Source: Candidatus Nomurabacteria bacterium
Lineage (GTDB): Bacteria > Patescibacteriota > Minisyncoccia > Phycocordibacterales > UBA9973
NCBI GenBank assembly: GCA_023267435.1
Contig: JAHFNH010000004.1
Span: 1,236 to 65,235 of the forward strand
DNA: 64,000 nt
Direction: 5' to 3'
Shown: one piece after another, positions 727-17,965 of the stretch
How the letters are laid out: every line of letters begins with the position of its first letter
Position numbering within the stretch: position 1 is the first letter of the stretch
Position numbers and translations under genes: made by a program
The notes under the pieces: generated by a model
What the model saw: only the letters and a program-made list of their open reading frames with translations
Databases searched by the model: none
What the model was told of the DNA's origin: nothing

Positions 727-3327
727 ATGAATAAAAAACAAACAACAGAAGGAGTAATAAGAGTTAAAGGAGCAAGAACTCACAATCTGAAAAATATCAG
801 TGTGGAAATGCCACGCGGTAAAATGATCGCCTTTACTGGACTTTCAGGTTCCGGCAAGAGTTCTTTGGCTTTCGATACTATATTTGCGGAAGGGCAGAGA
901 CGTTATGTGGAATCTTTGTCTTCTTATGCGCGTCAGTTTTTGAAACAGATGGCCAAGCCAGATGTGGATGAGATCGAAGGTTTGAGTCCAGCAATTTCCA
1001 TCGATCAAAAATCTCGTTCCAATAATCCTCGTTCGACAGTGGCGACTATCACAGAAATATACGATTATCTGCGTGTTCTTTATGCGCGCGTCGGTCGCCC
1101 GTACTGTCTGATTTGCGGAGATGAAATTAAAAAACTTTCTAATGAAGAAATAATCAGATTCGTAATGGAAAAGATTTCTAAACTTTCTAGTCCAAAGAAA
1201 AAAGTGATGGGTGTGGAATTCGACGATACTCCAATCCAAATATTTGCTCCGGTGGTACGAGGAAGAAAAGGTGAGTACTATCAGCTTCTTTATGATTTAC
1301 TCGGTAAAGGTTATGCGAAAGTGCGCGTAGACGGTGTGATGAAGAACTTGCGTGAACGCGTAGAACTCTCCAAAACTAAAAAACACGATATAGATGTATT
1401 AGTAGATGAATTTTCTGCGCACGAATTTGCAGTGAAAGATATGAAAGACATCGAGCTTCGTTTAGCTGAGTCTGTCGAACGAGCGCTTCTTGAGTCTGAC
1501 GGTTTGGTAAAAGTAGTCATTAATAAAGAAGAGTCGCTTTTGTCTGCGAAATTTTCTTGCCCGAAAGACGGCTTTTCATTTCCAGAAATAGAACCTCGTC
1601 TATTTTCTTTCAACTCTCCGCACGGAGCATGTCCGACTTGTCATGGTCTCGGCACGAAACATATGTTTGGAGATGATGCTTGTGATGAATGTCAGGGTAA
1701 AAGATTGCGTCCGGAAGCACTGCATGTGTACCTAGGTCACGGAGGAGAAAATAAAAATGGCATTAGTATCGTCGACTTCACTGCACTTTCCATCGAAGAC
1801 GCGGTCGAATATTTTAATAAACTAAAATTGACTCCTCAGGAAAAAGAAATTTCTGCGGTACTTTTGCGCGAGATCGAGTCTCGCCTGGAATTTTTGATGA
1901 ACGTCGGTTTGGAATATTTATCTCTCGATCGGAGGGCGAATACACTCTCGGGTGGAGAAGCGCAAAGAATTCGTCTCGCGTCTCAGCTCGGGTCTCGACT
2001 TGTCGGTGCACTTTATGTGTTAGATGAGCCGACGATTGGTCTTCATCAGCGCGACAATGAAAAACTCATCAAGACTCTTACCAACCTCCGAGATTTAGGA
2101 AATACGATTATTGTCGTCGAACACGATGAGGATACGATTTACTCTTCCGACTATATTGTGGACATCGGTCCGAAGGCGGGAGTGCATGGAGGAGAAATTA
2201 TTGTTGCCGACTATTTAGACAAATTACTCACCGCTCCGAAGAATACTTCGAAGTCTCGCACACTCGCATATTTGCGTGGAGAAGAAAAAATTCCCATTCC
2301 AGAAAAAAGGAGAGAAGGAGAGAAGGGGAGTTTGAAAGTTGTCGGTGGAAAAATTTTCAGTATAAAAAATTTGAATGCAGAAATTCCTCTCGGACGATTG
2401 GTCTCGATCACCGGAGTTTCTGGTTCCGGGAAATCTTCCTTCATGTACGAGATACTCCACAAAAATTTACAAGCGAAGTTCGAAAGAAAATACCGCAGTG
2501 CGCAAATTTTTAATTGCGCATCTTTTTCCGGTTCCGAATATTTACAGAGAGTCGTGCTCATCGACCAGTCACCGATCGGAAGAACTCCTCGCTCAAACAT
2601 CGCGACATACACCGGAGCGTTCGTGCATGTTCGTGATCTTTTTTCGGCGACCGAAGAGTCTCGTTTTCGTGGTTGGGGTCAGAGCAGATTTTCTTTCAAT
2701 GTGAAAGGCGGACGATGCGAAGCTTGTGAAGGAAATGGAGAGATAGCAGTCGAGATGCATTTCTTGCCGACAGTGTATGTGACATGCGATGTGTGTAATG
2801 GAAAAAGATTTGATAAAGAAACTTTGAAAGTAAAATATAAAAAGAAAAATATTTTTGAAGTTTTAGAAATGACAGTCGAAGAAGGTTTTACTTTTTTTGA
2901 AGACATACCTGCGATTTATGACAGACTAAAAACTTTGATGGATGTCGGACTCGGTTATGTGAAACTCGGACAAAGTGCGACGACACTTTCTGGCGGTGAA
3001 GCGCAACGTGTAAAAATTTCTAGTGAACTTTTCAGACCATACTTAGAAAAAACAATTTATCTTTTAGACGAGCCGACAGTCGGATTACATTATGATGATG
3101 TTCAGAATTTAATAAATGTTTTAGACAAGCTCGTGAACAAAGGAAACAGTGTTGTTGTCATCGAACACAATATGGATCTCATAAAATGCAGTGACTATAT
3201 ATTGGACTTTGGACCTGAAGGGGGAGACAAAGGTGGTACGTTAGTAGCGAAGGGAACTCCGGAAGAAGTCGCCAATCATCCTAAGTCTTTTACGGGTAAG
3301 TATCTTAAGAAAGTCTTGAGAAAATAA
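727..3327 (+). CDS. uvrA: excinuclease ABC subunit A (UvrA), compact 866-aa form
   Basis: Two ABC ATPase modules (GLSGSGKSSLAF and GVSGSGKSSF Walker A, LSGGEAQR signatures). Zinc-finger Cys clusters CPTCHG, CDEC, CEAC, CDVC. Confidence 0.92.
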   Translation: MNKKQTTEGVIRVKGARTHNLKNISVEMPRGKMIAFTGLSGSGKSSLAFDTIFAEGQRRYVESLSSYARQFLKQMAKPDVDEIEGLSPAISIDQKSRSNNPRSTVATITEIYDYLRVLYARVGRPYCLICGDEIKKLSNEEIIRFVMEKISKLSSPKKKVMGVEFDDTPIQIFAPVVRGRKGEYYQLLYDLLGKGYAKVRVDGVMKNLRERVELSKTKKHDIDVLVDEFSAHEFAVKDMKDIELRLAESVERALLESDGLVKVVINKEESLLSAKFSCPKDGFSFPEIEPRLFSFNSPHGACPTCHGLGTKHMFGDDACDECQGKRLRPEALHVYLGHGGENKNGISIVDFTALSIEDAVEYFNKLKLTPQEKEISAVLLREIESRLEFLMNVGLEYLSLDRRANTLSGGEAQRIRLASQLGSRLVGALYVLDEPTIGLHQRDNEKLIKTLTNLRDLGNTIIVVEHDEDTIYSSDYIVDIGPKAGVHGGEIIVADYLDKLLTAPKNTSKSRTLAYLRGEEKIPIPEKRREGEKGSLKVVGGKIFSIKNLNAEIPLGRLVSITGVSGSGKSSFMYEILHKNLQAKFERKYRSAQIFNCASFSGSEYLQRVVLIDQSPIGRTPRSNIATYTGAFVHVRDLFSATEESRFRGWGQSRFSFNVKGGRCEACEGNGEIAVEMHFLPTVYVTCDVCNGKRFDKETLKVKYKKKNIFEVLEMTVEEGFTFFEDIPAIYDRLKTLMDVGLGYVKLGQSATTLSGGEAQRVKISSELFRPYLEKTIYLLDEPTVGLHYDDVQNLINVLDKLVNKGNSVVVIEHNMDLIKCSDYILDFGPEGGDKGGTLVAKGTPEEVANHPKSFTGKYLKKVLRK

Positions 3328-3346
3328 GCTTTTAACAAATAAAAGT

Positions 3347-3371
3347 CCCACTTCTGGTGGGGTTTTTATTT
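3347..3371 (+). terminator. Rho-independent terminator after uvrA
   Basis: cccac-ttctg-gtggg hairpin followed by gtttttattt. Confidence 0.6.
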
Positions 3372-3707
3372 CTGGTTGCATGTATGAGTTCATTTAATTT
3401 TAATACTTATCCACAGTATAGTTATGTATTCTATTTACACTATATATACAGATTGATACAATATATGCACATACGTAGTTGTATGTTGTTTAGAAAGTTT
3501 TCGCGGAGTTGTTGCCCGGAAACAAAGTTAATTTTGGTTTTAAAAACCAATTTATTTTTTGTTTTCTGTTTGTTCGTTATTATTTATTAGTGTTTATTAT
3601 TAGTCGATTTGTTTTTATTAATAATTAGAGCTTTAATAATAAAAATTAAAGCCTAGCAAATTGCGCCGCGTTTCAATGGATAACGTTGCATGATTTAACA
3701 AAATCAT

Positions 3708-6700
3708 ATGTTTAAAAAAATATTTGTTTCTTCTTTTATTATCGTCGCATTAACTGTCGGCGCTTTTGGCATTTCACATAGTGTCGCTGCCGCTCAGACT
3801 TCTTTGTGGCAAGTTGCTCAGCAACAAGTCGGAGCAGGAGCATCATCCGATGCACTTGTTTCAGCTACAAAAAATCTTGCTACTAAGCACGATATAAAGA
3901 TCCCAGAATGGAGTTGGAATCTTTCTGGAAAATTTGATGTTCGAAAATTATCTTTGTCATTTTTGAAATCAATTGCATCTCTCGCTTCTTTTGGTAAATC
4001 AAATGTTGCGCAAGTAGTTCCCACTACTCCTACTTATACTTACCAATATAGTTTTGGAAGTGCTGGCCTTGGTAATGGACAACTTCGTTATACTCAGAAT
4101 CTTACCTCTGATTCAGACGGTAATATTTATGTTGCCGATGCTTACTACAATCGTCCACGTATTCAAAAATTTGATCAAAACGGAACCTTTCTATTAGGTT
4201 GGGGAGGTTACGGTACAGGTGACACTCAATTTGTTGACATAAGCAGTTTAACTTTCTTTAAAGGACAAATTTATGTTTCTGAAGTAAATGTTGATGATAT
4301 AAAAGTTTTTGATACTTCAGGAAATTTTGTTAGAAAAATAGCATTGAGTGTTTCTGGAGAAAGACAATATTTTGTGGCTAAGATAGCATTAGATTCAAGA
4401 GGTAACATTTATGTTCTTAGTAACAATACTACAAACGTTGTATATAAATTTACAAATTCTGGTACTTATGTTTCTTCTTTCCCTGTTGAGAATCCAAACT
4501 CTGCAAATGCCTTACAAGGCATCACAGTTGATTCCAATAATAATATTTATGTAACTGGATACAACTTTATTCGAGAATTTGATTTAAATGGTACTCTTGT
4601 AAAATCTTTTAATGTCAGTAGTTTATTCGGTTTTTATGGTATAACCGTTGATCTTTCTGGTTACGCTTTTGTTGGTGATAATAGTTACCAACAAGTGGAT
4701 GAATTTGACCCATCTGGAAATTATTTAGCAAGCTTTAAGAATCCAAGTGGTGCTGCAATTTATGGTGTGACTCGAATAGGTAATGGTAATATTTATGCTG
4801 CTGATTTTCCTAGTCAAGTAGATGTATTTATACCTTCTACTCCTTCTACAATTCCACCAATTATAACAATTAATGATCCACTTTATCCTACTGTTGTGAG
4901 TACTGGTCAGCAAATGGTTTTTGCTACTGCATTTACAAACGCAAGTGGTGCTGATATGGGAACTTGTTCATTTATATCAGGAGATGGAAGTATGGTTCCT
5001 ACATATATTGCTAAAGACAATAATCAGAATGATGTATTAGCTGCAAATTATACATATCTAAAAGATGGAACATTTTCAGCTTTATTTGAGTGTGTTTCTC
5101 CTCTCGCTGGTACTATTAGTAATACGCCTACTTCTATTATAGCTAGCACTTTAGACACAACTCCTCCAACAGTTGCTTCTACAAGTCCAACAGATTTATC
5201 TACAAATGTTTCTATTAATACAACCATTGAAGCAACCTTTAGTGAAGCGATAGATTGGAAAACTGCCAATAGCCAAAATGTTGTTCTTCTTGATCCGAAC
5301 GGTAATCAAGTTGAAGCAACCCTTTCTTCTAATAGTTCTATAGTAGGTGTTCTTTCTCCATCAGTACCACTAAATTACAACACAACTTATACAGTGATAA
5401 TTAAAAGAAATTTTAAAGATTTGGTTACAGGTGGCGTAGTAGCTGGTTTAACTGATCTAGCTGGAAATGAGATATCTGCTGATTTTGTTTGGTCATTTAC
5501 CACTGAAGCTAATCCAGTATCTGTAACAATTGGCGCAGTTCTTCCTACGGATACCACAGTCAATACAGCAACAGTATTTACTGCTAGTGTTACAAATCCA
5601 ACTGGCGTTGATTTAGGATCTTGTTATTTCTATGTAGGAATAAAATCTGTAGGTAATATACCTGCAACCTATGATGTGAAAGCTGGACAAGTCAGTGCAA
5701 CTTATACTTATGATACAGCTGGAGTTTATAATACCCAATTCTCTTGCAACGGTAGTCTTATAAGTGTTTCTGGTATTCCAACAGATGTAACTGTGACTAG
5801 TACTGTTCCTTCACCTTGTTCTATAACAATGGACAAAGCAAACCCAGATTTCGCTACATCATTAGGAACCATTTCTTTCGGTGGAGACGTTCTTGTTTCT
5901 TCCAACCCTAATTTATTATTCTCTTCAGATAACGGTGTTAAAAATGCTTGGAATAGTAAATATGATTTAAACTTGAATTCACCTACAGTCTACATGTTTG
6001 ACAAAGCAACAGGAGCGACTCTTCAGTTGACCAATGCCGCTTACGACGCAAAAACTCCTAGCTTTACATTCGACAAGCCAGCAGTAAATGTATTACTCTC
6101 AAAAGCAGCAGGTACTATGTCATACAAGTTTGATAATGGTGGAACAATCACCTTCGATGGTGGCGCCCTTGTTACATTTGCCGGACTAGAAGCATCTTTC
6201 GATGGTGGAACAACTTGGGTAACTTCTTACAAGACTGATCCTTATCCAAAAACATTCATTGTAAGAGATCCAAAAACACTAACAACTACAGACATCACAA
6301 ACGTATTACTTGATTCAAAAGCAGGAGCATTCTCTTTCTCAATAGCTCCAGTTTGTGTTGTTCCTCCTCCACCTTGTTCAACAACTACAACTCTTAACAA
6401 AGCAAACCCAGATTTCGCTACATCATTAGGAACCATTTCTTTCGGTGGAGACGTTCTTGTTTCTTCCAACCCTAATTTAGTAATGTCTGTAGACAATTCT
6501 CTTTGGGAAGGAAAACTTGATTTAAACCTTGTAGCCAAAACAAATATTGTTTATCTATGGGACAAACAAACAGGAGCTACTCTTCAGTTGACCAATGCCG
6601 CTTACGACGCAAAAACTCCTAGCTTCTCATTTGATAAACTACCTACAACAACTGTAGTTGAGTTATCAAAAATGAATACTACTTACACAGCATCAAATGG

Positions 6701-9059
6701 CGTAGTATTAACTTTTGATCCAAGTACATTCTCTTTAACTATCTTAAATGGATTAATGTCTGTAGATAATACAAAATTTGTAACCAGTCTAGGTAAAGCT
6801 GAATTATTAAAGTTCTCTACTTTGTATGTACAAGGTAAGTCAGGAGTAGTTACACCAGTAACTATGAAAGCTGATTCAAATCTAGGAATAATAGACTTTA
6901 CATTTACTACAGCAGATACTTGTGGAGTTTCTGATACAGTTGCACCAGTTACAACACTTACAAATGTTCCTGCAGTTGTAGACGGACAAAATGGTTGGTT
7001 TATAACTTCACCGGTTGTCGGCACACTTACTTGTGCTGATCTTCCAGCAGACAAAACTTCTTCCGGTTGTAACCAGACATTCTACACTCTTGATAAAGAC
7101 AGTGAAGTTTCAGGAGTCGCTCCAATAGATTTCAAAATGTACGACGGTATTCATTCTGTCTCTTATTACTCAAATGATAAAGCTGGAAATACAGAAGTTG
7201 CTCAAAGTGCTTCTTTCTACATAGATTCAGTTGCTCCTTCAACCAATGTTACTTTGATTGACAAGGACGCAGATAAGTTTATCGAAGCTGTTCAGGTTGA
7301 TGCAAAAGACGAAACTTCAGGTGTTGCTTATATGAATTATGTAGTCAGCCTAGGTGGAGTTGATGTTTACAAATCTGATCTTATAAAAGGATCATCCATA
7401 GCTATAGATCTTTCTCTTTGGACTAAAGCAGGTAAATCAATAACCATTACTTATTTCGCAACAGACAATGCTGGTAATACATCTAAAGATCAAGCTGTTG
7501 TTGCAAATTACGATATTTGTCCAGGAGTAGCAGGTCAATATCAAGGTTGTGGTAATAAGAATCATGTTATATCAATCGTTCATAATGTTAATAAAATTGC
7601 AAAATATGATGACAACGATGAATATAAGGGTGATCGAGCAAATTGCGGAATTACTACAGGTAAAGATGGAAAGAAATCAGTTACCGCAGAATGCGACAAA
7701 AATGTTTCAGGTGTAGTTGTTAAAGCCTTCCCATTTACTGTTGCTCAGAATATATTAAAGCCGATTAATGGTTGGGACGAAAATAATGATGGACAGCCTC
7801 GCCAGACATCTCTTGCTGCTCTCTATGCTTCAGGAGCTGAATCAAACTCATGTACTACTATTTCAGGTTCATGTGACATGGGTCTTCCAGTAGGAAAAGG
7901 TGTAGGTCAATTTACTAAATTCATTGATGTTGCTTTGTATACAGTTAAAGATCCATCTTCTGGTAAGAAGATTGATCTTTATCAATCAAAGGTAAAGAAT
8001 TTCATGGGTAAAGACCACGAGGATAATAAATCTGTTAGAGAAAGAGATGATAATCACAAGAGTTACTATAATTGTGACTCAAGTAGTAAATATCCTAACT
8101 TCAGTTCTGATGACTTAAGTAGAGAAAAAGTTTGTCAACAAGAAATTAATGACATGCATGGTACAAACGATGATAGTACAAACATAAATACTATCGTTAC
8201 TAAGACTTTCCGTTTCTTGAATCTTGTAAGTAAGGATTCAAATGGTAAAGAAAAAGATGAACCTTCTACAGCTGGTATTAAGAAAAATTCAGGATCAGAA
8301 CTAGATGTTATTTATCCAGAATATACTATTTGGGACGGTACAACAGCTCTTTATCCTTTCATTATGACTTCAGATTCTGATTGGACTACAGACGTATGTC
8401 TCCAAGTTCCAACAGGATATCAGATCTCGGCTGTTTATGATCAGGAAGGAAATATTATCTCAACTGATCAATGTCAACAGACATTTATCTCTGGTGAAAC
8501 TAAGACAGTTCTATTTTCAGTTAGCGATGTTGGTTCACCTGAACCTGATTTCACATTTTCTCTTCAAACCAAGCACCAAGAAGTTCAAACAGGAGGTGGA
8601 ACAGCACTTCAGCAAACTAACCAGACTCTTAGTGTAGGTGGTATCAGACAAGCAACTAAGGATGTTGTAGACACTCAGATAGCTCAAGCTATTGCTCCTG
8701 TAATCGCTCAGATTAATGCTGACAAGCAGGCTCAATTAGCTCAAGCTGTTCAAGTTCTAGCACCAGCTGTTAGTCCAGTTGTTATTGCTCAAGCTCCTAC
8801 ACCAATCAGCCAGGTTCAAGCAATAAACTTCTCTAATAATTTGAAATTAGGAAAGAAGGGAACTGATGTTAAGGCTCTTCAAGAATACCTTAACAATCAC
8901 GGCTTTGAAGTTTCCAAGTCAGGTGCAGGTTCAAATGGTATGGAATCTGAATACTTTGGAGGAAAAACAAAAGCTGCAGTCGTTAAATTCCAAAAGGCCA
9001 ACAAGCTTCCAGCTACTGGCTTCGTAGGAACAATGACTCGCTCGCTATTGAATAGATAA
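3708..9059 (+). CDS. giant secreted cell-surface protein (1783 aa): signal peptide, NHL-type beta-propeller repeats, Big_5-like Ig domain, duplicated internal domain, C-terminal PG_binding_1-like domain
   Basis: N-terminal hydrophobic signal. Repeated GNIYV(A/T)D/NxIxKF blades typical of NHL repeats. The TPPTVASTSPTDLSTNVSINTTIEATFSEAID segment matches the Big_5 pattern. The C-terminal LKLGKKGTDVKALQEYLNNHGF...VVKFQKANKLPATGFVG matches the peptidoglycan-binding domain pattern. Confidence 0.75.
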   Translation: MFKKIFVSSFIIVALTVGAFGISHSVAAAQTSLWQVAQQQVGAGASSDALVSATKNLATKHDIKIPEWSWNLSGKFDVRKLSLSFLKSIASLASFGKSNVAQVVPTTPTYTYQYSFGSAGLGNGQLRYTQNLTSDSDGNIYVADAYYNRPRIQKFDQNGTFLLGWGGYGTGDTQFVDISSLTFFKGQIYVSEVNVDDIKVFDTSGNFVRKIALSVSGERQYFVAKIALDSRGNIYVLSNNTTNVVYKFTNSGTYVSSFPVENPNSANALQGITVDSNNNIYVTGYNFIREFDLNGTLVKSFNVSSLFGFYGITVDLSGYAFVGDNSYQQVDEFDPSGNYLASFKNPSGAAIYGVTRIGNGNIYAADFPSQVDVFIPSTPSTIPPIITINDPLYPTVVSTGQQMVFATAFTNASGADMGTCSFISGDGSMVPTYIAKDNNQNDVLAANYTYLKDGTFSALFECVSPLAGTISNTPTSIIASTLDTTPPTVASTSPTDLSTNVSINTTIEATFSEAIDWKTANSQNVVLLDPNGNQVEATLSSNSSIVGVLSPSVPLNYNTTYTVIIKRNFKDLVTGGVVAGLTDLAGNEISADFVWSFTTEANPVSVTIGAVLPTDTTVNTATVFTASVTNPTGVDLGSCYFYVGIKSVGNIPATYDVKAGQVSATYTYDTAGVYNTQFSCNGSLISVSGIPTDVTVTSTVPSPCSITMDKANPDFATSLGTISFGGDVLVSSNPNLLFSSDNGVKNAWNSKYDLNLNSPTVYMFDKATGATLQLTNAAYDAKTPSFTFDKPAVNVLLSKAAGTMSYKFDNGGTITFDGGALVTFAGLEASFDGGTTWVTSYKTDPYPKTFIVRDPKTLTTTDITNVLLDSKAGAFSFSIAPVCVVPPPPCSTTTTLNKANPDFATSLGTISFGGDVLVSSNPNLVMSVDNSLWEGKLDLNLVAKTNIVYLWDKQTGATLQLTNAAYDAKTPSFSFDKLPTTTVVELSKMNTTYTASNGVVLTFDPSTFSLTILNGLMSVDNTKFVTSLGKAELLKFSTLYVQGKSGVVTPVTMKADSNLGIIDFTFTTADTCGVSDTVAPVTTLTNVPAVVDGQNGWFITSPVVGTLTCADLPADKTSSGCNQTFYTLDKDSEVSGVAPIDFKMYDGIHSVSYYSNDKAGNTEVAQSASFYIDSVAPSTNVTLIDKDADKFIEAVQVDAKDETSGVAYMNYVVSLGGVDVYKSDLIKGSSIAIDLSLWTKAGKSITITYFATDNAGNTSKDQAVVANYDICPGVAGQYQGCGNKNHVISIVHNVNKIAKYDDNDEYKGDRANCGITTGKDGKKSVTAECDKNVSGVVVKAFPFTVAQNILKPINGWDENNDGQPRQTSLAALYASGAESNSCTTISGSCDMGLPVGKGVGQFTKFIDVALYTVKDPSSGKKIDLYQSKVKNFMGKDHEDNKSVRERDDNHKSYYNCDSSSKYPNFSSDDLSREKVCQQEINDMHGTNDDSTNINTIVTKTFRFLNLVSKDSNGKEKDEPSTAGIKKNSGSELDVIYPEYTIWDGTTALYPFIMTSDSDWTTDVCLQVPTGYQISAVYDQEGNIISTDQCQQTFISGETKTVLFSVSDVGSPEPDFTFSLQTKHQEVQTGGGTALQQTNQTLSVGGIRQATKDVVDTQIAQAIAPVIAQINADKQAQLAQAVQVLAPAVSPVVIAQAPTPISQVQAINFSNNLKLGKKGTDVKALQEYLNNHGFEVSKSGAGSNGMESEYFGGKTKAAVVKFQKANKLPATGFVGTMTRSLLNR
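5833..5915 (+). repeat. intragenic repeat copy A (83 nt identical to 6397-6479)
   Basis: Exact nucleotide identity. Encodes KANPDFATSLGTISFGGDVLVSSNPNL. Confidence 0.9.
6397..6479 (+). repeat. intragenic repeat copy B (tandem domain duplication, ~564 nt periodicity)
   Basis: Exact identity to 5833-5915. A second shared block (caggagc.actcttcagttgaccaatgccgcttacgacgcaaaaactcctagctt) lies at 6010 and 6571. Confidence 0.9.
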
Positions 9060-9087
9060 TTATCCTTCTAGGATTCTTATTGCAAAA

Positions 9088-9120
9088 ACACTCCGACTTT
9101 CGTCGGAGTGTTTTTGTTTT
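9088..9120 (+). terminator. Rho-independent terminator after the giant surface protein gene
   Basis: acactccgac-tttc-gtcggagtgt hairpin followed by ttttgtttt. Confidence 0.7.
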
Positions 9121-9146
9121 AATTTTATGTTAATATTAAAACTATT

Positions 9147-10130
9147 ATGCCAGAAAAATTAGCCAAAAGGTTTATCGCAATATCTTTGATTTTAGTCGCA
9201 GTTTCTTTAGCTGTTGGTGTATATTTTGTTAAGCAAACATTTGATAATATTTTTAACAACATTAATACCGAAGTGGGACAGTCGGCTCGAGCAGTTGCAT
9301 TTGAGCAACAGAGTTGGGTACAGCGCAATCATCAATTAGCAGATGTTCTTTCAGTCCTTCCAGAAGTAGTTGGTAATGATATGACAAAATGTTCAAAAGT
9401 ATTATCGGATATTTTAAAGGCTTATCCGCAATATACAAATTTTGGAGTTGTAGACCTCAATGGTAATGTCATATGTTCTGGATTGCCTTACACTTCAAAA
9501 ATAAACTTTAGTAATGAATCGTGGTTTAAAAATGCAATTTCAAATAACAATTTTTCTATAGGTGATTTTCAAATTGGGCCAATTTCCAAGAAACCGATAA
9601 TTATTTTTGGTCATCCTATTTATGACAGTTCGTTGACTAGCGGAGGAAAAATAAAAAGAGTGATATCAATCGGACTTGATTTGAATTGGATTCATGATTT
9701 GCTTTCAAATATTGATATGAAACAAGGCGAAGTAGCTTTTGTGATAGATCGTAATGGCATTATATTAGCTGGTTTTCCAGATCAATATAATAGTGTTGGT
9801 AAGAACTTTACGGGAGGAGCATTTTTAGATCAAGTTATAAACAATGGCGCACATACTTTTAATATTATAGGCAGTGACGGTGTTCGTCGTATTTATGCTT
9901 CTACTCCTTTATCTGGAGAGGGAGAAAATGATTTATATTTTATATTTGGTGTTCCTGTAACTAGTATCATTACTCAGACGACTAAGGTTTCTATTCCGTT
10001 TATAATTATTTTTATGATTGGAATCTTTATTTTACGCGATGTTTTTCATCACCATCGAAAAGAAGCCATAATAAAAGAAGAAACAAAGGAAGAACCTAAA
10101 GAAGAACCTAAAGAAGAGAAACTAAGTTAA
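9147..10130 (+). CDS. bitopic membrane protein with a large extracytoplasmic (Cache-like?) domain and a C-terminal KEEPKEEPKEE tail; hypothetical
   Basis: N-terminal TM (IAISLILVAVSLAVGVYFV) and C-terminal TM (IPFIIIFMIGIFIL) flank a ~250-aa soluble domain. Tandem gaagaacctaaa repeat near the 3' end. Confidence 0.4.
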   Translation: MPEKLAKRFIAISLILVAVSLAVGVYFVKQTFDNIFNNINTEVGQSARAVAFEQQSWVQRNHQLADVLSVLPEVVGNDMTKCSKVLSDILKAYPQYTNFGVVDLNGNVICSGLPYTSKINFSNESWFKNAISNNNFSIGDFQIGPISKKPIIIFGHPIYDSSLTSGGKIKRVISIGLDLNWIHDLLSNIDMKQGEVAFVIDRNGIILAGFPDQYNSVGKNFTGGAFLDQVINNGAHTFNIIGSDGVRRIYASTPLSGEGENDLYFIFGVPVTSIITQTTKVSIPFIIIFMIGIFILRDVFHHHRKEAIIKEETKEEPKEEPKEEKLS

Positions 10131-10142
10131 TATATTTTTTAA

Positions 10143-11387
10143 ATGCAAACTCAAGAGTTAAAAAAATATAAAATTCCGGATAAGCCTGGAGTATATTTTT
10201 TCCTTAAAAATAAGGATATTTTTTATATTGGCAAAGCGACATCTTTAAAAGATAGAATAAAAAGTTATTTTAGTAATGATTTGTTTAATATGCGCGGACC
10301 TTTATTGGTGGATATGATAACCAAAGCGACAAGTATTAAATGGGTTGAAACTGATTCTGTTTTGGAAGCTCTGATTCTTGAGGCAAATTTTATCAAGAAA
10401 CATCAACCGATTTACAATACCAAAGAAAAGAGTGATAAGAGTTTCAATTATGTTTGTATTACAAGGGACACCTTACCTAAGGTAATTGTTGTTCGAGGAA
10501 AAGATTTAAATAAAAAACAAAAGAATTTTGGAGCCTTCGCCCTCGGAGGCATAAGGCAGGGAACCCACGACTCTGAAAATTCTTTTGTTTTTTACGATAA
10601 AGTTTTCGGCCCATATCCCAATGGTTCACAATTAAAAGAAGCACTAAAAATAGTGCGTCGCATTTTTCCATTTTTAGATGAAAAGAGTAAAAATAATTAT
10701 GAATTTTATAGACAATTAAAACTTGTTCCTGATGAGGGTAACTATAAGAAAAACATAAAAAATATAAAGTTATTTTTTGAAGGTAAAAAGAATAAAATCT
10801 TAAAAAATTTGGAAAAAGAAATGAGGGATTGTGCAAAAAGACATGAGTTTGAGAAAGCAGGGGAAATAAAAAAACAAATTTTTGCATTAAAACATATTCA
10901 AGATATTTCTTTAATTAAAGAAGATAAGATTACTAAAGAATTTTCTAAAGAAAATTTTCGCATTGAAGCTTATGACATAGCGCATATGAGCGGGGAAAAT
11001 ATGGTTGGCGTGATGGTGGTCATTGAAGATGGGGAAGTGAATAAAAAAGAATACCGGAAGTTTAAGATAAAAAATTACTCAAGTTCCAATGACGTTGGTG
11101 CATTAAAAGAAGTATTAGAGCGCAGGTTTGCTCATACAGAATGGATATACCCTAAACTAATGGTGATAGACGGAGGTAAGGCTCAGTTGAATATCGTTAA
11201 AAAATTCCAAAATGAAGTTGGTTTAGCAATACCAGTTGTGTCTGTGGTGAAAGACGAAAGACATAGGCCTAAAGCTATTTTAGGTGTTTCATCTGGTATC
11301 TCAGAGTCTTTGATACTTTTAGCTAATTCTGAAGCTCATAGATTTGCAATTTCGTATCATAGGAAATTACGTGGGAAGATTATATAA
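10143..11387 (+). CDS. uvrC: excinuclease ABC subunit C (UvrC), truncated form lacking the C-terminal HhH domain
   Basis: GIY-YIG motif (GVYFFLKNKDIFYIGKATSLKDRIKSYF). UvrBC-interaction motif (FEKAGEIKKQIFALKHIQ). RNase H-like endonuclease domain (RIEAYDIAHMSGENMVGVMVV...EAHRFAISYHRKLRGK). The ORF ends right after this domain. Confidence 0.8.
   Translation: MQTQELKKYKIPDKPGVYFFLKNKDIFYIGKATSLKDRIKSYFSNDLFNMRGPLLVDMITKATSIKWVETDSVLEALILEANFIKKHQPIYNTKEKSDKSFNYVCITRDTLPKVIVVRGKDLNKKQKNFGAFALGGIRQGTHDSENSFVFYDKVFGPYPNGSQLKEALKIVRRIFPFLDEKSKNNYEFYRQLKLVPDEGNYKKNIKNIKLFFEGKKNKILKNLEKEMRDCAKRHEFEKAGEIKKQIFALKHIQDISLIKEDKITKEFSKENFRIEAYDIAHMSGENMVGVMVVIEDGEVNKKEYRKFKIKNYSSSNDVGALKEVLERRFAHTEWIYPKLMVIDGGKAQLNIVKKFQNEVGLAIPVVSVVKDERHRPKAILGVSSGISESLILLANSEAHRFAISYHRKLRGKII
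10518..10587. repeat. palindromic element (AT-rich inverted arms caaaagaatttt, GC-rich core) inserted in frame in uvrC
   Basis: Arms caaaagaattttggag / ctctgaaaattcttttg are inverted complements. The core gccctcggaggc is itself a perfect palindrome. Related copies at 40132-40219 and 60207-60268. Confidence 0.75.
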
Positions 11388-11395
11388 TATTATAT

Positions 11396-12319
11396 ATGTC
11401 TCAAGATATTACTAATAAAATAAGAGTTGGAGTGTTGAGGGGTGGTGTGGATTCATGCTATAAAAAATCTTTAACAGAAGGCGGAAACGTTATAGCTCAC
11501 ATTCTTGAAAATTTATCGGATAAATATAAACCCGTTGATATTTTAATTGACACAAATGGTATCTGGCATGTGAATGGTGTCCCAATCGAACCAGAAGGAA
11601 TTGCGGGCAAAGTTGATGTTATTTGGAACACGTTACATCCTAATTTATCTAAAGTTTTTAAAGATTTATCTATTCCTATAGTTGGTGTAAATTATTTAAA
11701 TTTTTTATCACCAGATAATCGAGTTATGTTAGAAAAACACATGAAAGAAATTAATGTAAAAATGCCCAGGCATTTGATTCTTCCTTTATACAAAGAAGAC
11801 ATTGATGGAACAAAAGAAAAATATGCGACACAAAAAGCAAAAGATGTTTTTGAAAAGTTTTCTTCACCTTGGATAGTAAGGCCTTTAGTCTCTGATGTTA
11901 GTATGGGTGTTCATATAGCAAACACTTTTCCAGAATTAGTTAATGCTATAATGGATGGTATAAAACATAATCATGGAATTGTGGTTGAAGAATTAATAAT
12001 TGGAAAGTTTGCTTCGGTGCATACACTCGCTGGTTTTAGAAATAAAGATATATATTCTTTTCCAATTATTGAAAAGTTTTCTTCATTGGAAAAAGAAAAA
12101 CTTATATTTATTGCACAAAAAATATATGAACATATTGATACTAATGATTATTTGAAGACAGATTTAATTTTACATCCAACTAAAGGAATTTATCTTTCAG
12201 ATATTTCATCTTACCCTAGTTTAAGTGAAGATTCTCATTTGAATCAGTCTTGTGAATCTGTGGGTGCCAAAACTCATCATGCACTAGCTTCTATACTAGA
12301 AGCTAGTTTTAGCGAGTAA
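11396..12319 (+). CDS. ddl: D-alanine--D-alanine ligase-like ATP-grasp enzyme
   Basis: The N-terminal KIRVGVLRGGVDSCYKKSL resembles the Ddl N-terminus. ATP-grasp-sized (307 aa). Lies upstream of a secA-murE-murD-murC cluster. Confidence 0.55.
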   Translation: MSQDITNKIRVGVLRGGVDSCYKKSLTEGGNVIAHILENLSDKYKPVDILIDTNGIWHVNGVPIEPEGIAGKVDVIWNTLHPNLSKVFKDLSIPIVGVNYLNFLSPDNRVMLEKHMKEINVKMPRHLILPLYKEDIDGTKEKYATQKAKDVFEKFSSPWIVRPLVSDVSMGVHIANTFPELVNAIMDGIKHNHGIVVEELIIGKFASVHTLAGFRNKDIYSFPIIEKFSSLEKEKLIFIAQKIYEHIDTNDYLKTDLILHPTKGIYLSDISSYPSLSEDSHLNQSCESVGAKTHHALASILEASFSE

Positions 12320-12368
12320 AATATAGCTTTAATAATTAGAATATTTAACTAGCTGTTCTTTGTTTTTG

Positions 12369-12377
12369 TGATATAAT
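12369..12377 (+). promoter_or_regulatory. extended -10 promoter (TGaTATAAT) of a putative small-RNA unit
   Basis: Perfect TGnTATAAT in the intergenic region after ddl. Confidence 0.45.
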
Positions 12378-12383
12378 TTTAAA

Positions 12384-12519
12384 CGTAGAATTGTTTTTAT
12401 CTGTGGCGGGTTATCGCACTCACATAGGCACATATGTTGGAGGTTAGCCATAACCCGCCTCAAATGAAAGCAATTTTTAAAAAAACTACATTAAAGTAAA
12501 ACTTAATGTAGTTTTTTTA
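12384..12519 (+). ncRNA. candidate small RNA (~135 nt) with a 10-bp long-range stem (ggcgggttat...ataacccgcc) and an intrinsic terminator
   Basis: The promoter-to-terminator unit has no ORF. The inverted repeat at 12406-12460 encloses a 35-nt loop. Terminator ctacattaaagtaaaacttaatgtag plus T-run at 12486-12519. Confidence 0.35.
12486..12519 (+). terminator. Rho-independent terminator
   Basis: ctacattaaagt-aaaa-cttaatgtag followed by a 7-T run. Confidence 0.7.
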
Positions 12520-12774
12520 TTTTTTATCAAATATATGTTTGATGAAAAAGTTTTTATGATTTTTTATAAAAAATAAAATTATAGAGTTATCCACAGTTTT
12601 TGTTTTAAAAATGTTGTCTTATGGTTTGATATGCGCGATAATTAAATTAGTTCTCCGCAATAATTATTTTGAAAATGTTTTTTACTAAATATTTTTGAGG
12701 TCGTGATTATTGCAAACCAAATTAAAAATTTAATTTTCGCGAAATCTGTTTTTACAGATACAGCGACAAATAAT

Positions 12775-12846
12775 ATGGCAGCAAAAAAGAAAGCAAAGAA
12801 AGTGGCAAAGAAGGCCGCAAAGAAATCAGCAAAAAAGAGAGCTTAA
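12775..12846 (+). CDS. 23-aa lysine/alanine-rich micro-ORF (MAAKKKAKKVAKKAAKKSAKKRA)
   Basis: ATG at 12775, TAA at 12844. Followed by a hairpin plus T-run (12860-12890). Lies ~115 nt upstream of secA. Confidence 0.25.
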   Translation: MAAKKKAKKVAKKAAKKSAKKRA

Positions 12847-12893
12847 TACTCTTTTAAAAAATCTCTCGATGAAAATCGGGGGATTTTTTTATT

Positions 12894-12927
12894 GTGCATC
12901 TTCGGCACATCCGCCGTCGAGGCGGAT
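12894..12927 (+). promoter_or_regulatory. two GC-rich hairpins in the secA leader (tgtgc-atcttcg-gcaca; atccgcc-gtcga-ggcggat), related to the HR hairpin family
   Basis: ccgccgtcgaggcgg resembles ccgcctctacggcgg of the HR repeat. Located 36 nt upstream of the secA ATG. Confidence 0.4.
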
Positions 12928-12962
12928 TTATAATTAATGAAAATTATGTTATTATAGGGGTT

Positions 12963-15404: not shown

Positions 15405-15407
15405 AAT

Positions 15408-16637
15408 ATGAGAGGATTGATAAAAAATCTTAAAATAAAAAGACGGGCGATCTCAACTCTAGCGGCGTTGCATTTTTATGGTAATCCATCAGCTAAATTA
15501 AAAATAGTCGGAGTGACAGGTACGAATGGTAAGACGACGACAGCGACACTTTTATATAAAATTGCTACTAGTTTAGGATATAAAGCAGGACTTATTGGAA
15601 CAGTAGAAAATATTTTGGTAGATGAAATTAGGCCATCGACACATACGACACCTGGGCCTATTCAACTCAACAAACTTCTTTCAGAAATGGCAGACAGGAG
15701 ATGCGAGTACGTTTTTATGGAAGTGTCTTCACATGCCATAGATCAAAAGCGCATTGCGGGAGTAAATTTTGTCGGAGGTATTTTTACAAATCTTACTCAT
15801 GATCATTTGGATTATCATAAGAGTTTCGAAAATTATTTTTTAGCTAAGAAGAAGTTTTTTGAGCATCTTCCTAAAGATTCTTTTGCTCTTTCAAATATGG
15901 ACGATGAACACGGTAAGGCGATGATTGAAAGTATTTCAGCTAGAAGATTTTTCTATGGATTTAATGGAGGCGAAGATTTTCATGGAGAAATTAATAAATT
16001 AGATTCTAAGGGATTAGAACTTATTTTTAATGAGGAAAAAATTAAGGTAAAACTTTTAGGTAAATTTAATGCCTATAATTTACTTTCAGTTTGGAGCACT
16101 GCAAAACTTTTAGGTTTTGATATGGAAAAGGTTAAAACAATTTTGGAAGATATTGATCCTCCAAGAGGTAGGTTTGATCATTTTATGTCTCCAAATGGTG
16201 TTTTAGTTGTTGTTGATTATGCTCACACTCCGGATGCATTAGAGAAGATACTTTTAGCGGTATTGGAATTAAAAATAGAAAAGGGCAGGATTATTTCGGT
16301 GTTTGGTTGCGGGGGAGATCGAGATCCTTTAAAACGAAGGATTATGGGAAAAATCGGAGTGACACTTTCTGACATAGCTATTTTTACATCGGACAATCCA
16401 AGGAGTGAAGATCCTGAAAAAATTCTTATTGAAATGAAAACTGATTTGTCTATTGCTGATTCAAAAAAAGTAAAAAAGATTTCAAACCGTCGTGAAGCAA
16501 TTCTTGAAGCAGTTCATTTAGCAAAGGAAGGGGATATAATTTTATGCGCCGGCAAGGGTCATGAAGATTATCAGGAAATAAAAGGAGTGAAGCATCATTT
16601 TAATGATTTAGAAGAACTTAAAAATGCCTTTAAATAA
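15408..16637 (+). CDS. murE: UDP-N-acetylmuramoyl-tripeptide synthetase (MurE-like Mur ligase), compact
   Basis: GVTGTNGKTTTA P-loop, DYAHTPDALEK and TSDNPRSEDP motifs typical of MurE. Confidence 0.75.
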   Translation: MRGLIKNLKIKRRAISTLAALHFYGNPSAKLKIVGVTGTNGKTTTATLLYKIATSLGYKAGLIGTVENILVDEIRPSTHTTPGPIQLNKLLSEMADRRCEYVFMEVSSHAIDQKRIAGVNFVGGIFTNLTHDHLDYHKSFENYFLAKKKFFEHLPKDSFALSNMDDEHGKAMIESISARRFFYGFNGGEDFHGEINKLDSKGLELIFNEEKIKVKLLGKFNAYNLLSVWSTAKLLGFDMEKVKTILEDIDPPRGRFDHFMSPNGVLVVVDYAHTPDALEKILLAVLELKIEKGRIISVFGCGGDRDPLKRRIMGKIGVTLSDIAIFTSDNPRSEDPEKILIEMKTDLSIADSKKVKKISNRREAILEAVHLAKEGDIILCAGKGHEDYQEIKGVKHHFNDLEELKNAFK

Positions 16638-17964: not shown

Positions 17965-17965
17965 T

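What the first reader, a model, noticed from the sequence alone, without database searches (positions are those of the whole stretch)
3708..9059. 1783-aa surface protein with NHL propeller, Ig-like and peptidoglycan-binding domains and a recent internal tandem duplication
The largest gene in the window encodes a secreted multi-domain protein. It has an NHL-repeat beta-propeller at the N-terminus, a Big_5-like Ig domain, a duplicated ~188-aa module, a Cys/Asp/Lys-rich region, and a C-terminal PG_binding_1-like domain that would tether it to the wall. Within the duplicated module, two stretches (83 nt at 5833/6397 and ~57 nt at 6010/6571) are identical or nearly so at the nucleotide level while flanking sequence has diverged. 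This indicates ongoing gene conversion or very recent duplication, a hallmark of adhesins under selection. The gene sits between uvrA and uvrC, which are often adjacent or co-regulated elsewhere.
Basis: partly seen in the sequence, partly recalled or inferred. Interest (0 to 1): 0.55.

Follow-up and report, generated by a model that had tools for sequence, protein, structure and literature searches.

The report
Wall-anchored surface fibre protein, mosaic repeats
This is a real 1783-residue, adhesin-like surface protein of an uncultivated Nomurabacteria (CPR) bacterium, whose two internal modules are an old duplication kept partly identical by recent gene conversion; it is well explained rather than a new kind of system.

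Summary
ORF 3708-9059 (+) encodes 1783 aa: signal peptide, six-bladed NHL propeller, Big_5, two ~188-aa modules, two OmpL47-type domains, a Cys/Asp/Lys-rich region and a C-terminal PG_binding_1 domain. Exact 83-nt (5833-5915 = 6397-6479) and 47-nt (6018-6064 = 6579-6625) repeats exist.

Each module is an A+B pair of ~93-aa beta domains. B1 and B2 each group with B units of other proteins (bootstrap 100% and 93%) and never with each other, so the duplication is ancient. Only the A halves are homogenised. In tract 1, 27 of 27 codons are identical (11.8 expected), while codon choice outside the tracts is at chance. This indicates recent, patchy gene conversion.

An independent assembly of run SRR14366756 breaks exactly at the first k-mer unique to copy 2, which argues against an assembly artefact.

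The gene and a dCache_1 gene form a 6.8-kb insertion. In the closest relative, uvrA and uvrC are 4 nt apart.

The A/B module has no Pfam or PDB sequence match and no Foldseek match to its confident model. The C-terminal cassette, apart from a TSP3-like repeat, has no Pfam or PDB sequence match. The cassette recurs in 33 metagenome loci under different head domains.

Best reading: a peptidoglycan-tethered fibrillar adhesin-like protein. Binding function is inferred, not shown. Interest is modest.

The parts
3328..10142 (+). Lineage-specific 6.8-kb insertion between uvrA and uvrC (big gene plus dCache_1 gene)
   Evidence: In L006 (Minisyncoccia MAG; UvrA 93%, SecA 86% identical) the uvrA stop lies 4 nt before the uvrC start. 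In L009 the gap is 477 nt. None of 80 secA loci from related genomes carries a homologue of either inserted gene.
3434..3462 (+). Promoter-like site upstream of the gene (TTTACA-17-TACAAT with TG), following a uvrA terminator-like hairpin at 3347-3361
   Evidence: Consensus scan, 10 of 12 matches. This is a consensus match only. The total number of promoter-like sites in the region is not above the shuffle expectation.
3708..9059 (+). Gene for the 1783-aa surface protein
   Evidence: An identical protein, P0001, is in NCBI/ENA on a 75,728-bp contig. No other full-length homologue was found.
3708..3794 (+). Signal peptide, aa 1-29; likely cleavage AAA|Q; no lipobox Cys
   Evidence: Read directly from the translation. 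No signal-peptide predictor was available.
4023..4841 (+). Six-bladed NHL beta-propeller, aa ~106-378 (distal head)
   Evidence: Pfam NHL, SBBP, Mala_s_1-like and DUF5128. PDB NHL domains at E 1.8e-19. Blade-motif DNA repeats D4/D8. Internal blade similarity.
4842..5147 (+). Unassigned ~100-aa Cys-pair domain, aa 379-480; paralogous to aa 600-700
   Evidence: Self-comparison: aa 374-477 against 593-694, 28% identical, E 3e-07. No Pfam hit. Cys420/Cys462.
5154..5504 (+). Big_5 bacterial Ig-like domain, aa 483-599
   Evidence: Pfam E 2.3e-20.
5505..5807 (+). Second copy of the unassigned ~100-aa domain, aa 600-700
   Evidence: The only Pfam signal is a sub-threshold Filamin hit, E 0.056. Cys639/Cys680.
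5808..6365 (+). Module 1: A1 (aa 701-794, nt 5808-6089) plus B1 (aa 795-886, nt 6090-6365); bracketed by Cys704 and Cys883
   Evidence: B1 groups with the B units of P0126/P0127, bootstrap 100%.
6366..6929 (+). Module 2: A2 (aa 887-981, nt 6366-6650) plus B2 (aa 982-1074, nt 6651-6929); bracketed by Cys890 and Cys1072
   Evidence: AF2 model with mean pLDDT 88.6: two ~90-aa all-beta domains of similar strand order. B2 groups with P0125_Ma at 93%. No Pfam, PDB-sequence or Foldseek match.
5833..5915 (+). Conversion tract 1, copy 1 (83 nt, identical to 6397-6479)
   Evidence: 27 of 27 codons identical against 11.8 expected from codon usage.
6397..6479 (+). Conversion tract 1, copy 2
6018..6064 (+). 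Conversion tract 2, copy 1 (47 nt exact; 56 nt with one mismatch from 6009), identical to 6579-6625
   Evidence: 17 of 19 codons identical against 8.5 expected.
6579..6625 (+). Conversion tract 2, copy 2. The independent Logan contig L005 begins at 6596, the first 31-mer unique to copy 2
6933..7511 (+). Two OmpL47-type beta-barrel / Big_13-like domains, aa 1076-1268
   Evidence: NCBIfam NF047446, 53.7 bits against a cutoff of 40, two stretches. Pfam Big_13 at E 7e-05, below threshold.
7512..8267 (+). Cys/Asp/Lys-rich domain, aa 1269-1520; first part of a conserved C-terminal cassette. It starts with the remnant of a TSP3-type repeat (D-x-CP...GC) and carries a ~45-aa acidic insertion
   Evidence: Homologues P0122 and P0123 (P0124 covers only the end of this region) and the cassette alignment of 20 metagenome ORFs drawn from the 33 loci. 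Profile A3 hits only the TSP3 repeats of PDB 5wtl. No Pfam hit.
8268..8627 (+). Highly conserved 'YPFI(M/F)TSDSDW..DVC..P.GY' beta domain, aa 1521-1640; second part of the cassette
   Evidence: 73-76% identical to L001/L002 and 41% to L004. Invariant columns listed. No Pfam or PDB match.
8628..8858 (+). Ala/Gln/Val-rich linker, aa 1641-1717
   Evidence: Composition A 18%, Q 14%, V 13%. Predicted helical, but in a low-confidence model.
8859..9050 (+). PG_binding_1 domain, aa 1718-1781 (wall tether)
   Evidence: Pfam E 1.9e-13. PDB PG-binding domains via profile A1. The window also encodes Ddl, MurE, MurD and MurC.
9082..9117 (+). Strong intrinsic-terminator-like hairpin (16-bp stem plus T run) after the stop codon
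9147..10130 (+). Co-inserted gene: 327-aa membrane protein with an extracytoplasmic dCache_1 domain, two TM helices and no output domain
   Evidence: Pfam dCache_1 E 1.1e-22. Sequence. Absent from L006 and L009.

Best explanation
The gene encodes a Sec-exported surface protein of a Candidatus Nomurabacteria (Patescibacteria/CPR) bacterium, tethered non-covalently to peptidoglycan and built like a monoderm fibrillar adhesin.

Shown: domain order and polarity.
- The C-terminal PG_binding_1 domain would hold the protein on the wall.
- An Ala/Gln-rich linker and a conserved anchor-proximal cassette (Cys-rich domain plus 'TSDSDW' domain) form the base.
- About ten beta-sandwich-type domains form a stalk: two OmpL47-type domains, four A/B units, Big_5 and two unassigned Cys-pair domains.
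- A six-bladed NHL propeller sits at the distal N-terminal tip.

Inferred, not shown: the propeller is the ligand-binding head, and the ligand is a host cell or other surface.

Shown: the 'duplicated module' is an old tandem pair of two different module types, A-B(alpha) and A-B(beta). Each has closer relatives in other proteins than in its neighbour.

Inferred from codon and tree evidence:
- The A halves undergo concerted evolution by intragenic gene conversion.
- An older homogenisation left them 49% identical outside the tracts.
- Two very recent conversion patches (83 nt and 47-56 nt) have not yet accumulated a single synonymous change in tract 1.

Shown by synteny: the gene, with its own promoter-like site and terminator, and the neighbouring orphan dCache_1 sensor-like gene lie in a 6.8-kb segment. 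That segment is absent from the closest relatives, where uvrA abuts uvrC. It is therefore lineage-specific accessory DNA, not part of the uvr unit.
For: Architecture:
- Domain and family hits.
- The window encodes Ddl, MurE, MurD and MurC, so a peptidoglycan wall is made.
- Taxon: 80 SecA relatives at 78-86% identity, mostly titled Nomurabacteria, Paceibacterota or Patescibacteria.
- The same head-to-anchor architecture (signal peptide, NHL propellers, C-terminal PG_binding_1) recurs in P0004, P0012, P0038 (Candidatus Paceibacterota) and P0113.
- L102 has NHL + Ig-like + TSP3 + the same cassette.
- The polarity (head N-terminal, anchor C-terminal) matches what PMC8286594 reports for Gram-positive fibrillar adhesin-like proteins. 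That study lists PG_binding_1 among anchors.

Gene conversion:
- Tract 1 has 27 of 27 identical codons against 11.8 expected (P about 1e-10). Tract 2 has 17 of 19.
- Outside the tracts, codons for identical residues match at chance: 11 of 21 against 10.4 expected in A, and 14 of 27 against 12.4 in B.
- A1 and A2 are 78% identical, against 23-51% for all other A pairs, including pairs within the same protein.
- In the multiple alignment, M1 against M2 is 100% in the tracts, 49% in A outside the tracts and 30% in B.
- NJ bootstraps: A halves M1+M2 100%; B halves M1+M2 0%; M1 with P0126/P0127 100%; M2 with P0125_Ma 93%. A outside the tracts still groups M1+M2 at 71%.

The repeat is real:
- Logan contig L005, assembled independently from run SRR14366756, equals window 6596-12442 at 100% identity.
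- It begins exactly at the first 31-mer unique to copy 2, which is the position expected for a graph branch at a true two-copy repeat if that assembler uses k=31. The k value is my own knowledge; no tool output states it.

Insertion.
Against: - No experiment or binding-domain annotation shows adhesion. NHL propellers also occur in enzymes and sensors.
- The signal peptide was judged by eye.
- About 40% of the protein has no family assignment: aa 30-105, 379-480, 600-1075 and 1269-1640.
- The AF2 model of the C-terminal cassette was poor (pLDDT 44).
- Stalk rigidity and the orientation relative to the wall are not tested.
- Gene conversion is inferred from one sequence, with no population data. 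The units in the trees are only ~90 aa long, and trees were NJ only.
- 'Insertion' rather than 'deletion in relatives' rests on only two relatives that keep uvrA next to uvrC.
Confidence: 0.62

Rival explanations
1. Very recent tandem duplication of the whole ~188-aa module, followed by rapid divergence everywhere except two constrained stretches.
For: The two modules are adjacent, in frame and collinear over their full length. The identical tracts are also the most conserved peptide stretches of the A unit in relatives.
Against: - The B halves are 30% identical to each other, and each is closer to B units of other proteins (41-48%). B1+B2 group together in 0% of bootstraps.
- Codon choice at identical residues outside the tracts is at chance, which means old divergence.
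- Relatives P0125 and P0128-P0130 already carry two modules.
Confidence: 0.04
2. Assembly artefact. Two strain alleles (one A-B-alpha, one A-B-beta) were threaded into an artificial tandem, or the repeat was expanded or collapsed by the assembler.
For: The source is a metagenome-assembled contig. The exact protein is a singleton seen on one contig.
Against: - The B1-to-A2 junction (…SIAPVCVVPPPPCSTTTTLNK, ~6340-6400) is unique sequence, different from the junction upstream of A1. A bubble between alleles would not create it.
- An independent assembly of SRR14366756 matches the downstream 5.8 kb at 100% and breaks exactly at the k-mer boundary of the 47-nt repeat, as expected for a genuine two-context repeat.
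- Relatives from other samples have the same two-module layout.
- A de Bruijn assembler cannot create sequence identity between two copies that differ.
Confidence: 0.04
3. The identical tracts are maintained by selection as in-frame recombination sites. The stalk could then switch between one, two or three modules, giving periscope-protein-like length or antigenic variation. They would not be mere by-products of conversion.
For: - Both offsets (564 and 561 nt) are multiples of three. Unequal exchange at either tract would give an in-frame 188- or 187-aa deletion or duplication.
- Repeat-number variation by homologous recombination is documented for wall-anchored stalk proteins (PMC9704523).
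Against: - Only two modules are present, and only 83 + 47 nt are identical. Periscope proteins have arrays of highly identical whole-domain repeats.
- In-frame offsets follow automatically from homology between codon-aligned copies.
- No variant alleles were seen, since only one contig exists.
Confidence: 0.1
4. The protein is not an adhesin. It could be an envelope enzyme, an S-layer-like structural protein, or a sensor that works with the adjacent dCache_1 protein, with the NHL propeller as a catalytic or ligand-sensing unit.
For: - Propeller hits include families annotated as lactonase/SGL, Vgb lyase or phytase-like in homologues.
- PG_binding_1 is most often found on wall hydrolases.
- The gene was co-inserted with an extracytoplasmic sensor-like protein.
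Against: - No catalytic family reaches its threshold in this protein.
- About 1,300 of 1,783 residues are spacer-type beta domains, which suits projection of a head away from the wall.
- The dCache protein has no output domain, and a strong terminator separates the two genes.
Confidence: 0.2

Closest known systems
Fibrillar adhesin-like (FA-like) proteins of monoderm bacteria (Monzon et al. 2021, PMC8286594)
   Same: - A single long chain.
- Exported.
- Putative binding domain at the N-terminus.
- Long run of Ig-like or beta-sandwich stalk domains.
- Wall anchor at the C-terminus. PG_binding_1 is on that study's anchor list.
   Different: - The head is an NHL propeller, which is not mentioned in that paper's main text (0 occurrences).
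- The anchor is non-covalent, not LPxTG.
- Much of the stalk is made of families absent from Pfam (the A/B units and the cassette).
- The organism is a CPR bacterium.
- Adhesion is untested.
Periscope proteins (SasG/Aap, Rib/Alpha C, SHIRT-repeat proteins; PMC9704523)
   Same: - Wall-attached stalk protein.
- Tandem repeated domains.
- DNA-level identity between repeats that could support homologous recombination.
   Different: - Only two modules.
- Identity is confined to 83 + 47 nt patches (A halves 78% at the amino-acid level, B halves 30%).
- No evidence of copy-number variation.
Large NHL-propeller proteins with a C-terminal PG_binding_1 domain in Paceibacteria/CPR metagenomes (P0004, P0012, P0038, P0113)
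   Same: - Signal or TM start.
- NHL propeller(s) 25-37% identical.
- PG_binding_1 tail 37-53% identical.
   Different: - They share nothing with aa 379-1640 of this protein.
- Several carry multiple propellers.
- They are unnamed and uncharacterised.
Metagenomic proteins carrying the TSP3 + Cys-rich + 'TSDSDW' C-terminal cassette (e.g. L102, L090, L092, L099; P0122-P0124, P0126)
   Same: - The cassette sits in the same position, just before the C-terminal anchor or tail.
- L102 also has an NHL head.
- P0126 combines an A/B module with the cassette.
   Different: - Heads differ: SBBP, beta-helix/NosD, Kelch.
- Most end in a hydrophobic helix plus basic tail, or in a Lys-rich tail, instead of PG_binding_1.
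- The window protein has a degenerate TSP3 repeat and a 45-aa acidic insertion.

Membership tests
Fibrillar adhesin-like proteins (criteria of PMC8286594) | Extracellular | tested here: met
   N-terminal n-h-c signal sequence with AAA|Q and no other hydrophobic segment, read. The extracytoplasmic domain types support this. No signal-peptide predictor was available.
Fibrillar adhesin-like proteins (criteria of PMC8286594) | Adhesive region, usually at a terminus | not testable with these tools
   A six-bladed NHL propeller is at the N-terminus. Whether it binds a surface ligand is unknown.
Fibrillar adhesin-like proteins (criteria of PMC8286594) | Stalk-like region forming a rod | tested here: inconclusive
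   About ten tandem beta domains: Big_5, two OmpL47-type and four A/B units. The AF2 model of A2-B2 has pLDDT 88.6 and is all-beta. Rigidity was not assessed.
Fibrillar adhesin-like proteins (criteria of PMC8286594) | Surface-anchoring motif or domain | tested here: met
   PG_binding_1 at aa 1718-1781, 50.8 bits against a cutoff of 23. Listed as an anchor in PMC8286594.
Periscope proteins (PMC9704523) | Array of highly identical tandem repeat domains | tested here: not met
   Two modules only. A halves are 78% identical and B halves 30%. DNA identity is limited to 83 + 47 nt.
Periscope proteins (PMC9704523) | Repeat-number variation between closely related strains | not testable with these tools
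   The protein is a singleton on one contig. No reads were available.
NHL-repeat six-bladed beta-propeller | Profile match above threshold and six blades | tested here: met
   Pfam NHL 28.8 against 20 and SBBP 30.2 against 20.5. PDB NHL domains at E 1.8e-19. Six '(D)xxGNIYV/xxYVxD'-type blade motifs spaced about 45 aa apart, read with support.
PG_binding_1 (PF01471) | Profile match above the gathering score | tested here: met
   E 1.9e-13, full-length match to profile positions 2-57 of 57.
OmpL47-type beta-barrel domain (NF047446) | Profile match above the curated cutoff | tested here: met
   53.7 bits against 40, two stretches. The full-length OmpL47 equivalog is not met (33 against 250).
Diversity-generating retroelement target (VR/TR pair) | Repeat mismatches confined to adenines of one copy, with a nearby reverse transcriptase | tested here: not met
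   The 18 mismatches in D1/D2 involve all four bases. The flanking genes are uvrA, dCache_1 and uvrC.

The most novel reading that the evidence does not exclude
Three more novel readings are not excluded.

1. The stalk units and the anchor-proximal cassette are previously undescribed domain families.
- The A/B unit gives a confident AF2 model (pLDDT 88.6) with no Foldseek match in PDB or BFVD. Only nine other representative proteins among 1.84 billion match it at E <= 1e-3; seven of those were confirmed by pairwise comparison, one is weaker and one is probably spurious.
- The 'TSDSDW' cassette recurs under Kelch, SBBP, beta-helix and NHL heads in 33 metagenome loci.

2. The cassette is a dedicated envelope-attachment or export module of uncultivated ultrasmall microbes.

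3. The two in-frame identical tracts act as a recombination switch that changes the stalk length of a host-attachment protein in a CPR episymbiont.
Probability: 0.15. Interest if true: 0.55.

Novelty: new member of a known kind. Interest (0 to 1): 0.3.

Why it matters
How CPR/Patescibacteria recognise and hold on to hosts or surfaces is largely unknown beyond type IV pili. This lineage-specific, wall-tethered protein with a propeller head is a concrete candidate attachment factor.

It also defines two unannotated domain families that could be added to domain databases: the A/B unit and the TSP3 + Cys-rich + TSDSDW cassette.

The module pair is a clean example of how patchy gene conversion can make an ancient duplication look recent. 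That is a useful caution for genome scans.

None of this overturns current ideas.

Tried and rejected
Searches that found nothing:
- Full-length homologue search: only the propeller finds relatives.
- Word-index search with the module: nothing. The exhaustive search was needed to find relatives.
- First genome-contig scan with aa 665-1714: nothing.
- Exact look-up of P0001 on contigs: not on record.
- Cluster look-ups gave no names. All 12 window proteins found in the collection are singletons at 90% identity; the SecA query was not found.
- IMG/VR scan for the cassette: none. The module alignment was too variable for a pattern scan.
- No paralogues of any part of the protein elsewhere in the window.

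Structure work:
- The AF2 model of the C-terminal cassette from 4 sequences had pLDDT 44 and was unusable, so it was not used for fold search.
- Foldseek of the good module model against PDB (best E 0.16, TM <= 0.21) and BFVD (best E 0.011, TM <= 0.19) gave no match.
- PDB profile searches found only PG_binding_1 (A1), only the TSP3 repeats of 5wtl (A3), and nothing significant for A2.

Ideas rejected:
- DGR target: mismatches are not adenine-specific and there is no reverse transcriptase nearby.
- Tandem Repeats Finder sees no array in the gene because the period exceeds 500.
- Antisense ORFs at 6242-6538 and 6683-7054 were not searched; I assumed they are chance ORFs.
Full report
**1. The observation**

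The window has an intact ORF at 3708-9059 on the + strand. It encodes 1783 aa and is the largest ORF in the 64 kb.

- Pfam gives Big_5 at aa 483-599 (E 2.3e-20) and PG_binding_1 at aa 1718-1781 (E 1.9e-13). It also gives NHL, SBBP and six-bladed-propeller families over aa ~110-370, all above their gathering scores.
- The propeller matches solved NHL domains (Thin, TRIM71, Brat) down to E 1.8e-19.
- NCBIfam adds two OmpL47-type beta-barrel domains at aa ~1076-1268.
- The Cys/Asp/Lys-rich region is aa 1269-1520, with 8 Cys, 10% Lys and 10% Asp.

The repeat is real. Direct repeats lie at offsets 564 and 561 nt. The exact runs are 83 nt (5833-5915 = 6397-6479) and 47 nt (6018-6064 = 6579-6625). 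The second extends to 56 nt with one mismatch.

**2. Whose gene it is**

GC content is about 34%. SecA finds 80 relatives at 78-86% identity, mostly titled Candidatus Nomurabacteria, Paceibacterota or Patescibacteria. All twelve window proteins found in the collection are singletons at 90% identity, on one 75.7-kb NCBI/ENA contig. The window also encodes Ddl, MurE, MurD and MurC, so the organism makes peptidoglycan and a PG_binding_1 tether is plausible.

**3. Anatomy of the 'duplicated module'**

Self-comparison shows each ~188-aa module is two ~93-aa units. These are A1 (aa 701-794), B1 (795-886), A2 (887-981) and B2 (982-1074). A and B are weakly similar to each other (29-31%). A cysteine brackets each module: Cys704/Cys883 and Cys890/Cys1072.

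The word-index search found no relative of the module. The exhaustive search of 1.84 billion representatives returned nine other proteins at E <= 1e-3 (P0125-P0133). Pairwise comparison confirmed A/B units in seven of them (P0125-P0131). P0132 is a weaker match (E 2e-4), and P0133 (E 9e-4) looks like a spurious hit to a repeat protein. Most of the confirmed relatives are 550-614 aa. They have an N-terminal hydrophobic anchor, one or two A-B modules, a thrombospondin-type-3-like repeat and a Cys/acidic tail. Apart from sub-threshold TSP_3 hits they have no Pfam assignment.

**4. Old duplication, recent conversion**

Three lines of evidence separate the history of the A and B halves.

| Comparison (M1 vs M2) | Identity | Source |
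|---|---|---|
| Within the two tracts | 100% | |
| A halves outside the tracts | 49% | |
| B halves | 30% | |
| A1 vs A2 overall (pairwise) | 78%, against 23-51% for every other A pair | |

- B1 is 41-44% identical to the B units of P0126 and P0127. B2 is 36-48% identical to those of P0125, P0128 and P0130.
- Neighbour-joining bootstraps on the B halves put B1 with P0126/P0127 in 100% of replicates and B2 with P0125_Ma in 93%. B1 and B2 group together in 0%.
- On the A halves, A1+A2 group in 100% of replicates. With the tract columns removed they still group in 71%.

The codon evidence points the same way.

| Region | Identical codons at identical residues | Expected from codon usage |
|---|---|---|
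| Tract 1 | 27 of 27 (P about 1e-10) | 11.8 |
| Tract 2 | 17 of 19 | 8.5 |
| Rest of A | 11 of 21 | 10.4 |
| B halves | 14 of 27 | 12.4 |

So the two-module arrangement is ancient, and relatives already carry it. The A halves evolve in concert. The two tracts are very recent conversion patches laid over older, eroded homogenisation. 'Very recent duplication' of the module is not.

A diversity-generating retroelement was considered and rejected. The mismatches involve all four bases and no reverse transcriptase is nearby.

**5. Not an assembly artefact, as far as can be told without reads**

- The B1-to-A2 junction is unique sequence that a bubble between two alleles would not produce.
- Logan contig L005, an independent assembly of run SRR14366756, equals window 6596-12442 at 100% identity.
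- Its first base, 6596, starts the first 31-mer unique to copy 2 after the shared 47-nt repeat (6579-6625). A unitig should break there if that repeat has two right-hand contexts in the reads. That this assembly uses k=31 is my own knowledge, not a tool output.
- Relatives from other samples have the same layout.

**6. The C-terminal cassette**

Residues 1266-1783 have three homologues, P0122-P0124. All end in PG_binding_1.

The central ~110 aa carries the motif YPFI(M/F)TSDSDW..DVC..P.GY…GSPEP. It is 73-76% identical in L001 and L002 and 41% in L004, which encodes the module-bearing protein P0126.

A metagenome scan found 33 loci with this domain. In every ORF that could be read it lies near the C-terminus, in proteins of up to 2007 aa on contigs of GC 0.34-0.66.

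The aligned cassette has three parts: a TSP3-type repeat, a ~170-aa Cys-containing domain and the TSDSDW domain. It sits below very different heads: SBBP propeller, NosD-type beta-helix, Kelch propeller and NHL propeller. It is followed there by a hydrophobic helix with a basic tail, or by a Lys-rich tail.

A 21-sequence profile hits only the TSP3 repeats of PDB 5wtl. No member has a Pfam hit in the cassette proper. None occurs in IMG/VR. The AF2 model from four sequences was too poor to use (pLDDT 44).

**7. Genomic setting**

The gene looks monocistronic. A terminator-like hairpin follows uvrA (3347-3361). A promoter-like site lies at 3434-3462. A 16-bp-stem terminator lies at 9082-9117.

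Downstream is a 327-aa protein with two TM helices, an extracytoplasmic dCache_1 domain and no output domain. After it come uvrC, ddl and secA.

In the closest relative with context, L006 (UvrA 93% identical), the uvrA stop is 4 nt from the uvrC start. In L009 the gap is 477 nt. No homologue of the big gene or the dCache gene occurs in any of the 80 secA loci. Window 3328-10142 is therefore a lineage-specific 6.8-kb segment. Insertion is favoured over loss, but that rests on only two relatives.

**8. What it most likely does**

The order of parts is: signal peptide; NHL propeller; about ten beta domains; conserved cassette; Ala/Gln-rich linker; PG_binding_1. This is the polarity reported for monoderm fibrillar adhesin-like proteins, with the head N-terminal and the anchor C-terminal. 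PG_binding_1 is among the recognised anchors (PMC8286594).

The same head-and-anchor pairing recurs in other large Paceibacteria-type proteins: P0004, P0012, P0038 and P0113.

I therefore read the protein as a wall-tethered fibre that presents a propeller head away from the cell. Attachment to a host or surface is likely but unproven. All cultivated Patescibacteria are episymbionts whose attachment factors, beyond type IV pili, are poorly known.

It is not a periscope protein in the defined sense (PMC9704523), because it lacks an array of highly identical repeats. The in-frame identical tracts could still permit rare 188- or 187-aa length changes.

**9. Verdict**

The protein is a new member of a known kind (a fibrillar, wall-anchored surface protein). 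It carries two unannotated domain families and a clear example of patchy intragenic gene conversion. Interest is modest at 0.3. The more novel readings (new folds, an envelope-attachment cassette, a recombinational length switch) remain possible at roughly 15%.

Noticed in passing
window 9147-10130: Orphan dCache_1 membrane protein: two TM helices, an extracytoplasmic Cache domain, and only a short Lys/Glu/Pro-rich cytoplasmic tail with no transmitter domain. It was co-inserted with the big gene and is absent from relatives L006 and L009.
   Followed up: partly
L086-L118 (e.g. L090 6440-10558, L092 5075-7990, L099 1290-4106, L102 7814-10447, L112 4496-10519): An unannotated C-terminal cassette (TSP3 repeat + Cys-rich domain + 'TSDSDW' domain) sits under very different heads (SBBP, beta-helix/NosD, Kelch, NHL) in 33 metagenome loci of GC 0.34-0.66. 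It is followed by a hydrophobic helix with a basic tail, or by a Lys-rich tail. It looks like a shared anchor-proximal module. The taxonomy of the carriers was not resolved; L108 is bacterial, as it encodes Mfd.
   Followed up: partly
P0125-P0131 (L003 316-2058, L004 660-2321): The A/B module family is very rare: nine other representative proteins among 1.84 billion score E <= 1e-3, of which seven were confirmed by pairwise comparison, P0132 is weaker and P0133 is probably spurious. Four (P0125, P0128-P0130) start with an N-terminal hydrophobic anchor beginning MHKIHHK. P0125 comes from the same sequencing run (SRR14366756) as the window organism, so it may be a paralogue or belong to a co-resident relative.
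   Followed up: no
window 3708-9059, Cys positions aa 420/462, 639/680, 704/883, 890/1072, 1109/1121, 1564/1589: All 20 cysteines come in even numbers per domain. Each A-B module is bracketed by one Cys at its first and last residues, which suggests a disulfide clasp joining the two ends of the module. This could not be checked because no model coordinates were available.
   Followed up: no
window 727-3327 and 10143-11387: UvrA (866 aa) and especially UvrC (414 aa) are, from my own knowledge, shorter than the usual bacterial proteins. UvrC ends after the RNase H-like endonuclease domain. Relatives L006 and L009 align over the same length.
   Followed up: no
window 3328-3707: A 380-nt AT-rich intergenic region upstream of the gene contains a 24-nt tandem repeat (3520-3565, 1.9 copies) and an AT-rich palindrome (3594-3645). 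No Rfam family matches anywhere in the window except the 5 tRNAs.
   Followed up: no
window 5000-7000: GC skew turns negative (to -0.13) inside the gene, while all neighbouring + strand genes have positive skew (0.1-0.27). This may reflect Thr/Ser/Pro-rich composition or a foreign origin of the inserted segment.
   Followed up: no
window 11396-19288: Cell-wall gene cluster ddl - secA - murE - murD - murC on the + strand. The ddl-secA adjacency is conserved in 61 of 80 related loci.
   Followed up: partly
L001 1-260: P0123 (449 aa; cassette + PG_binding_1) begins at an ATG just after an in-frame stop and has no signal peptide. It may be a split or frameshifted C-terminal piece of a larger surface-protein gene rather than a stand-alone protein.
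   Followed up: partly
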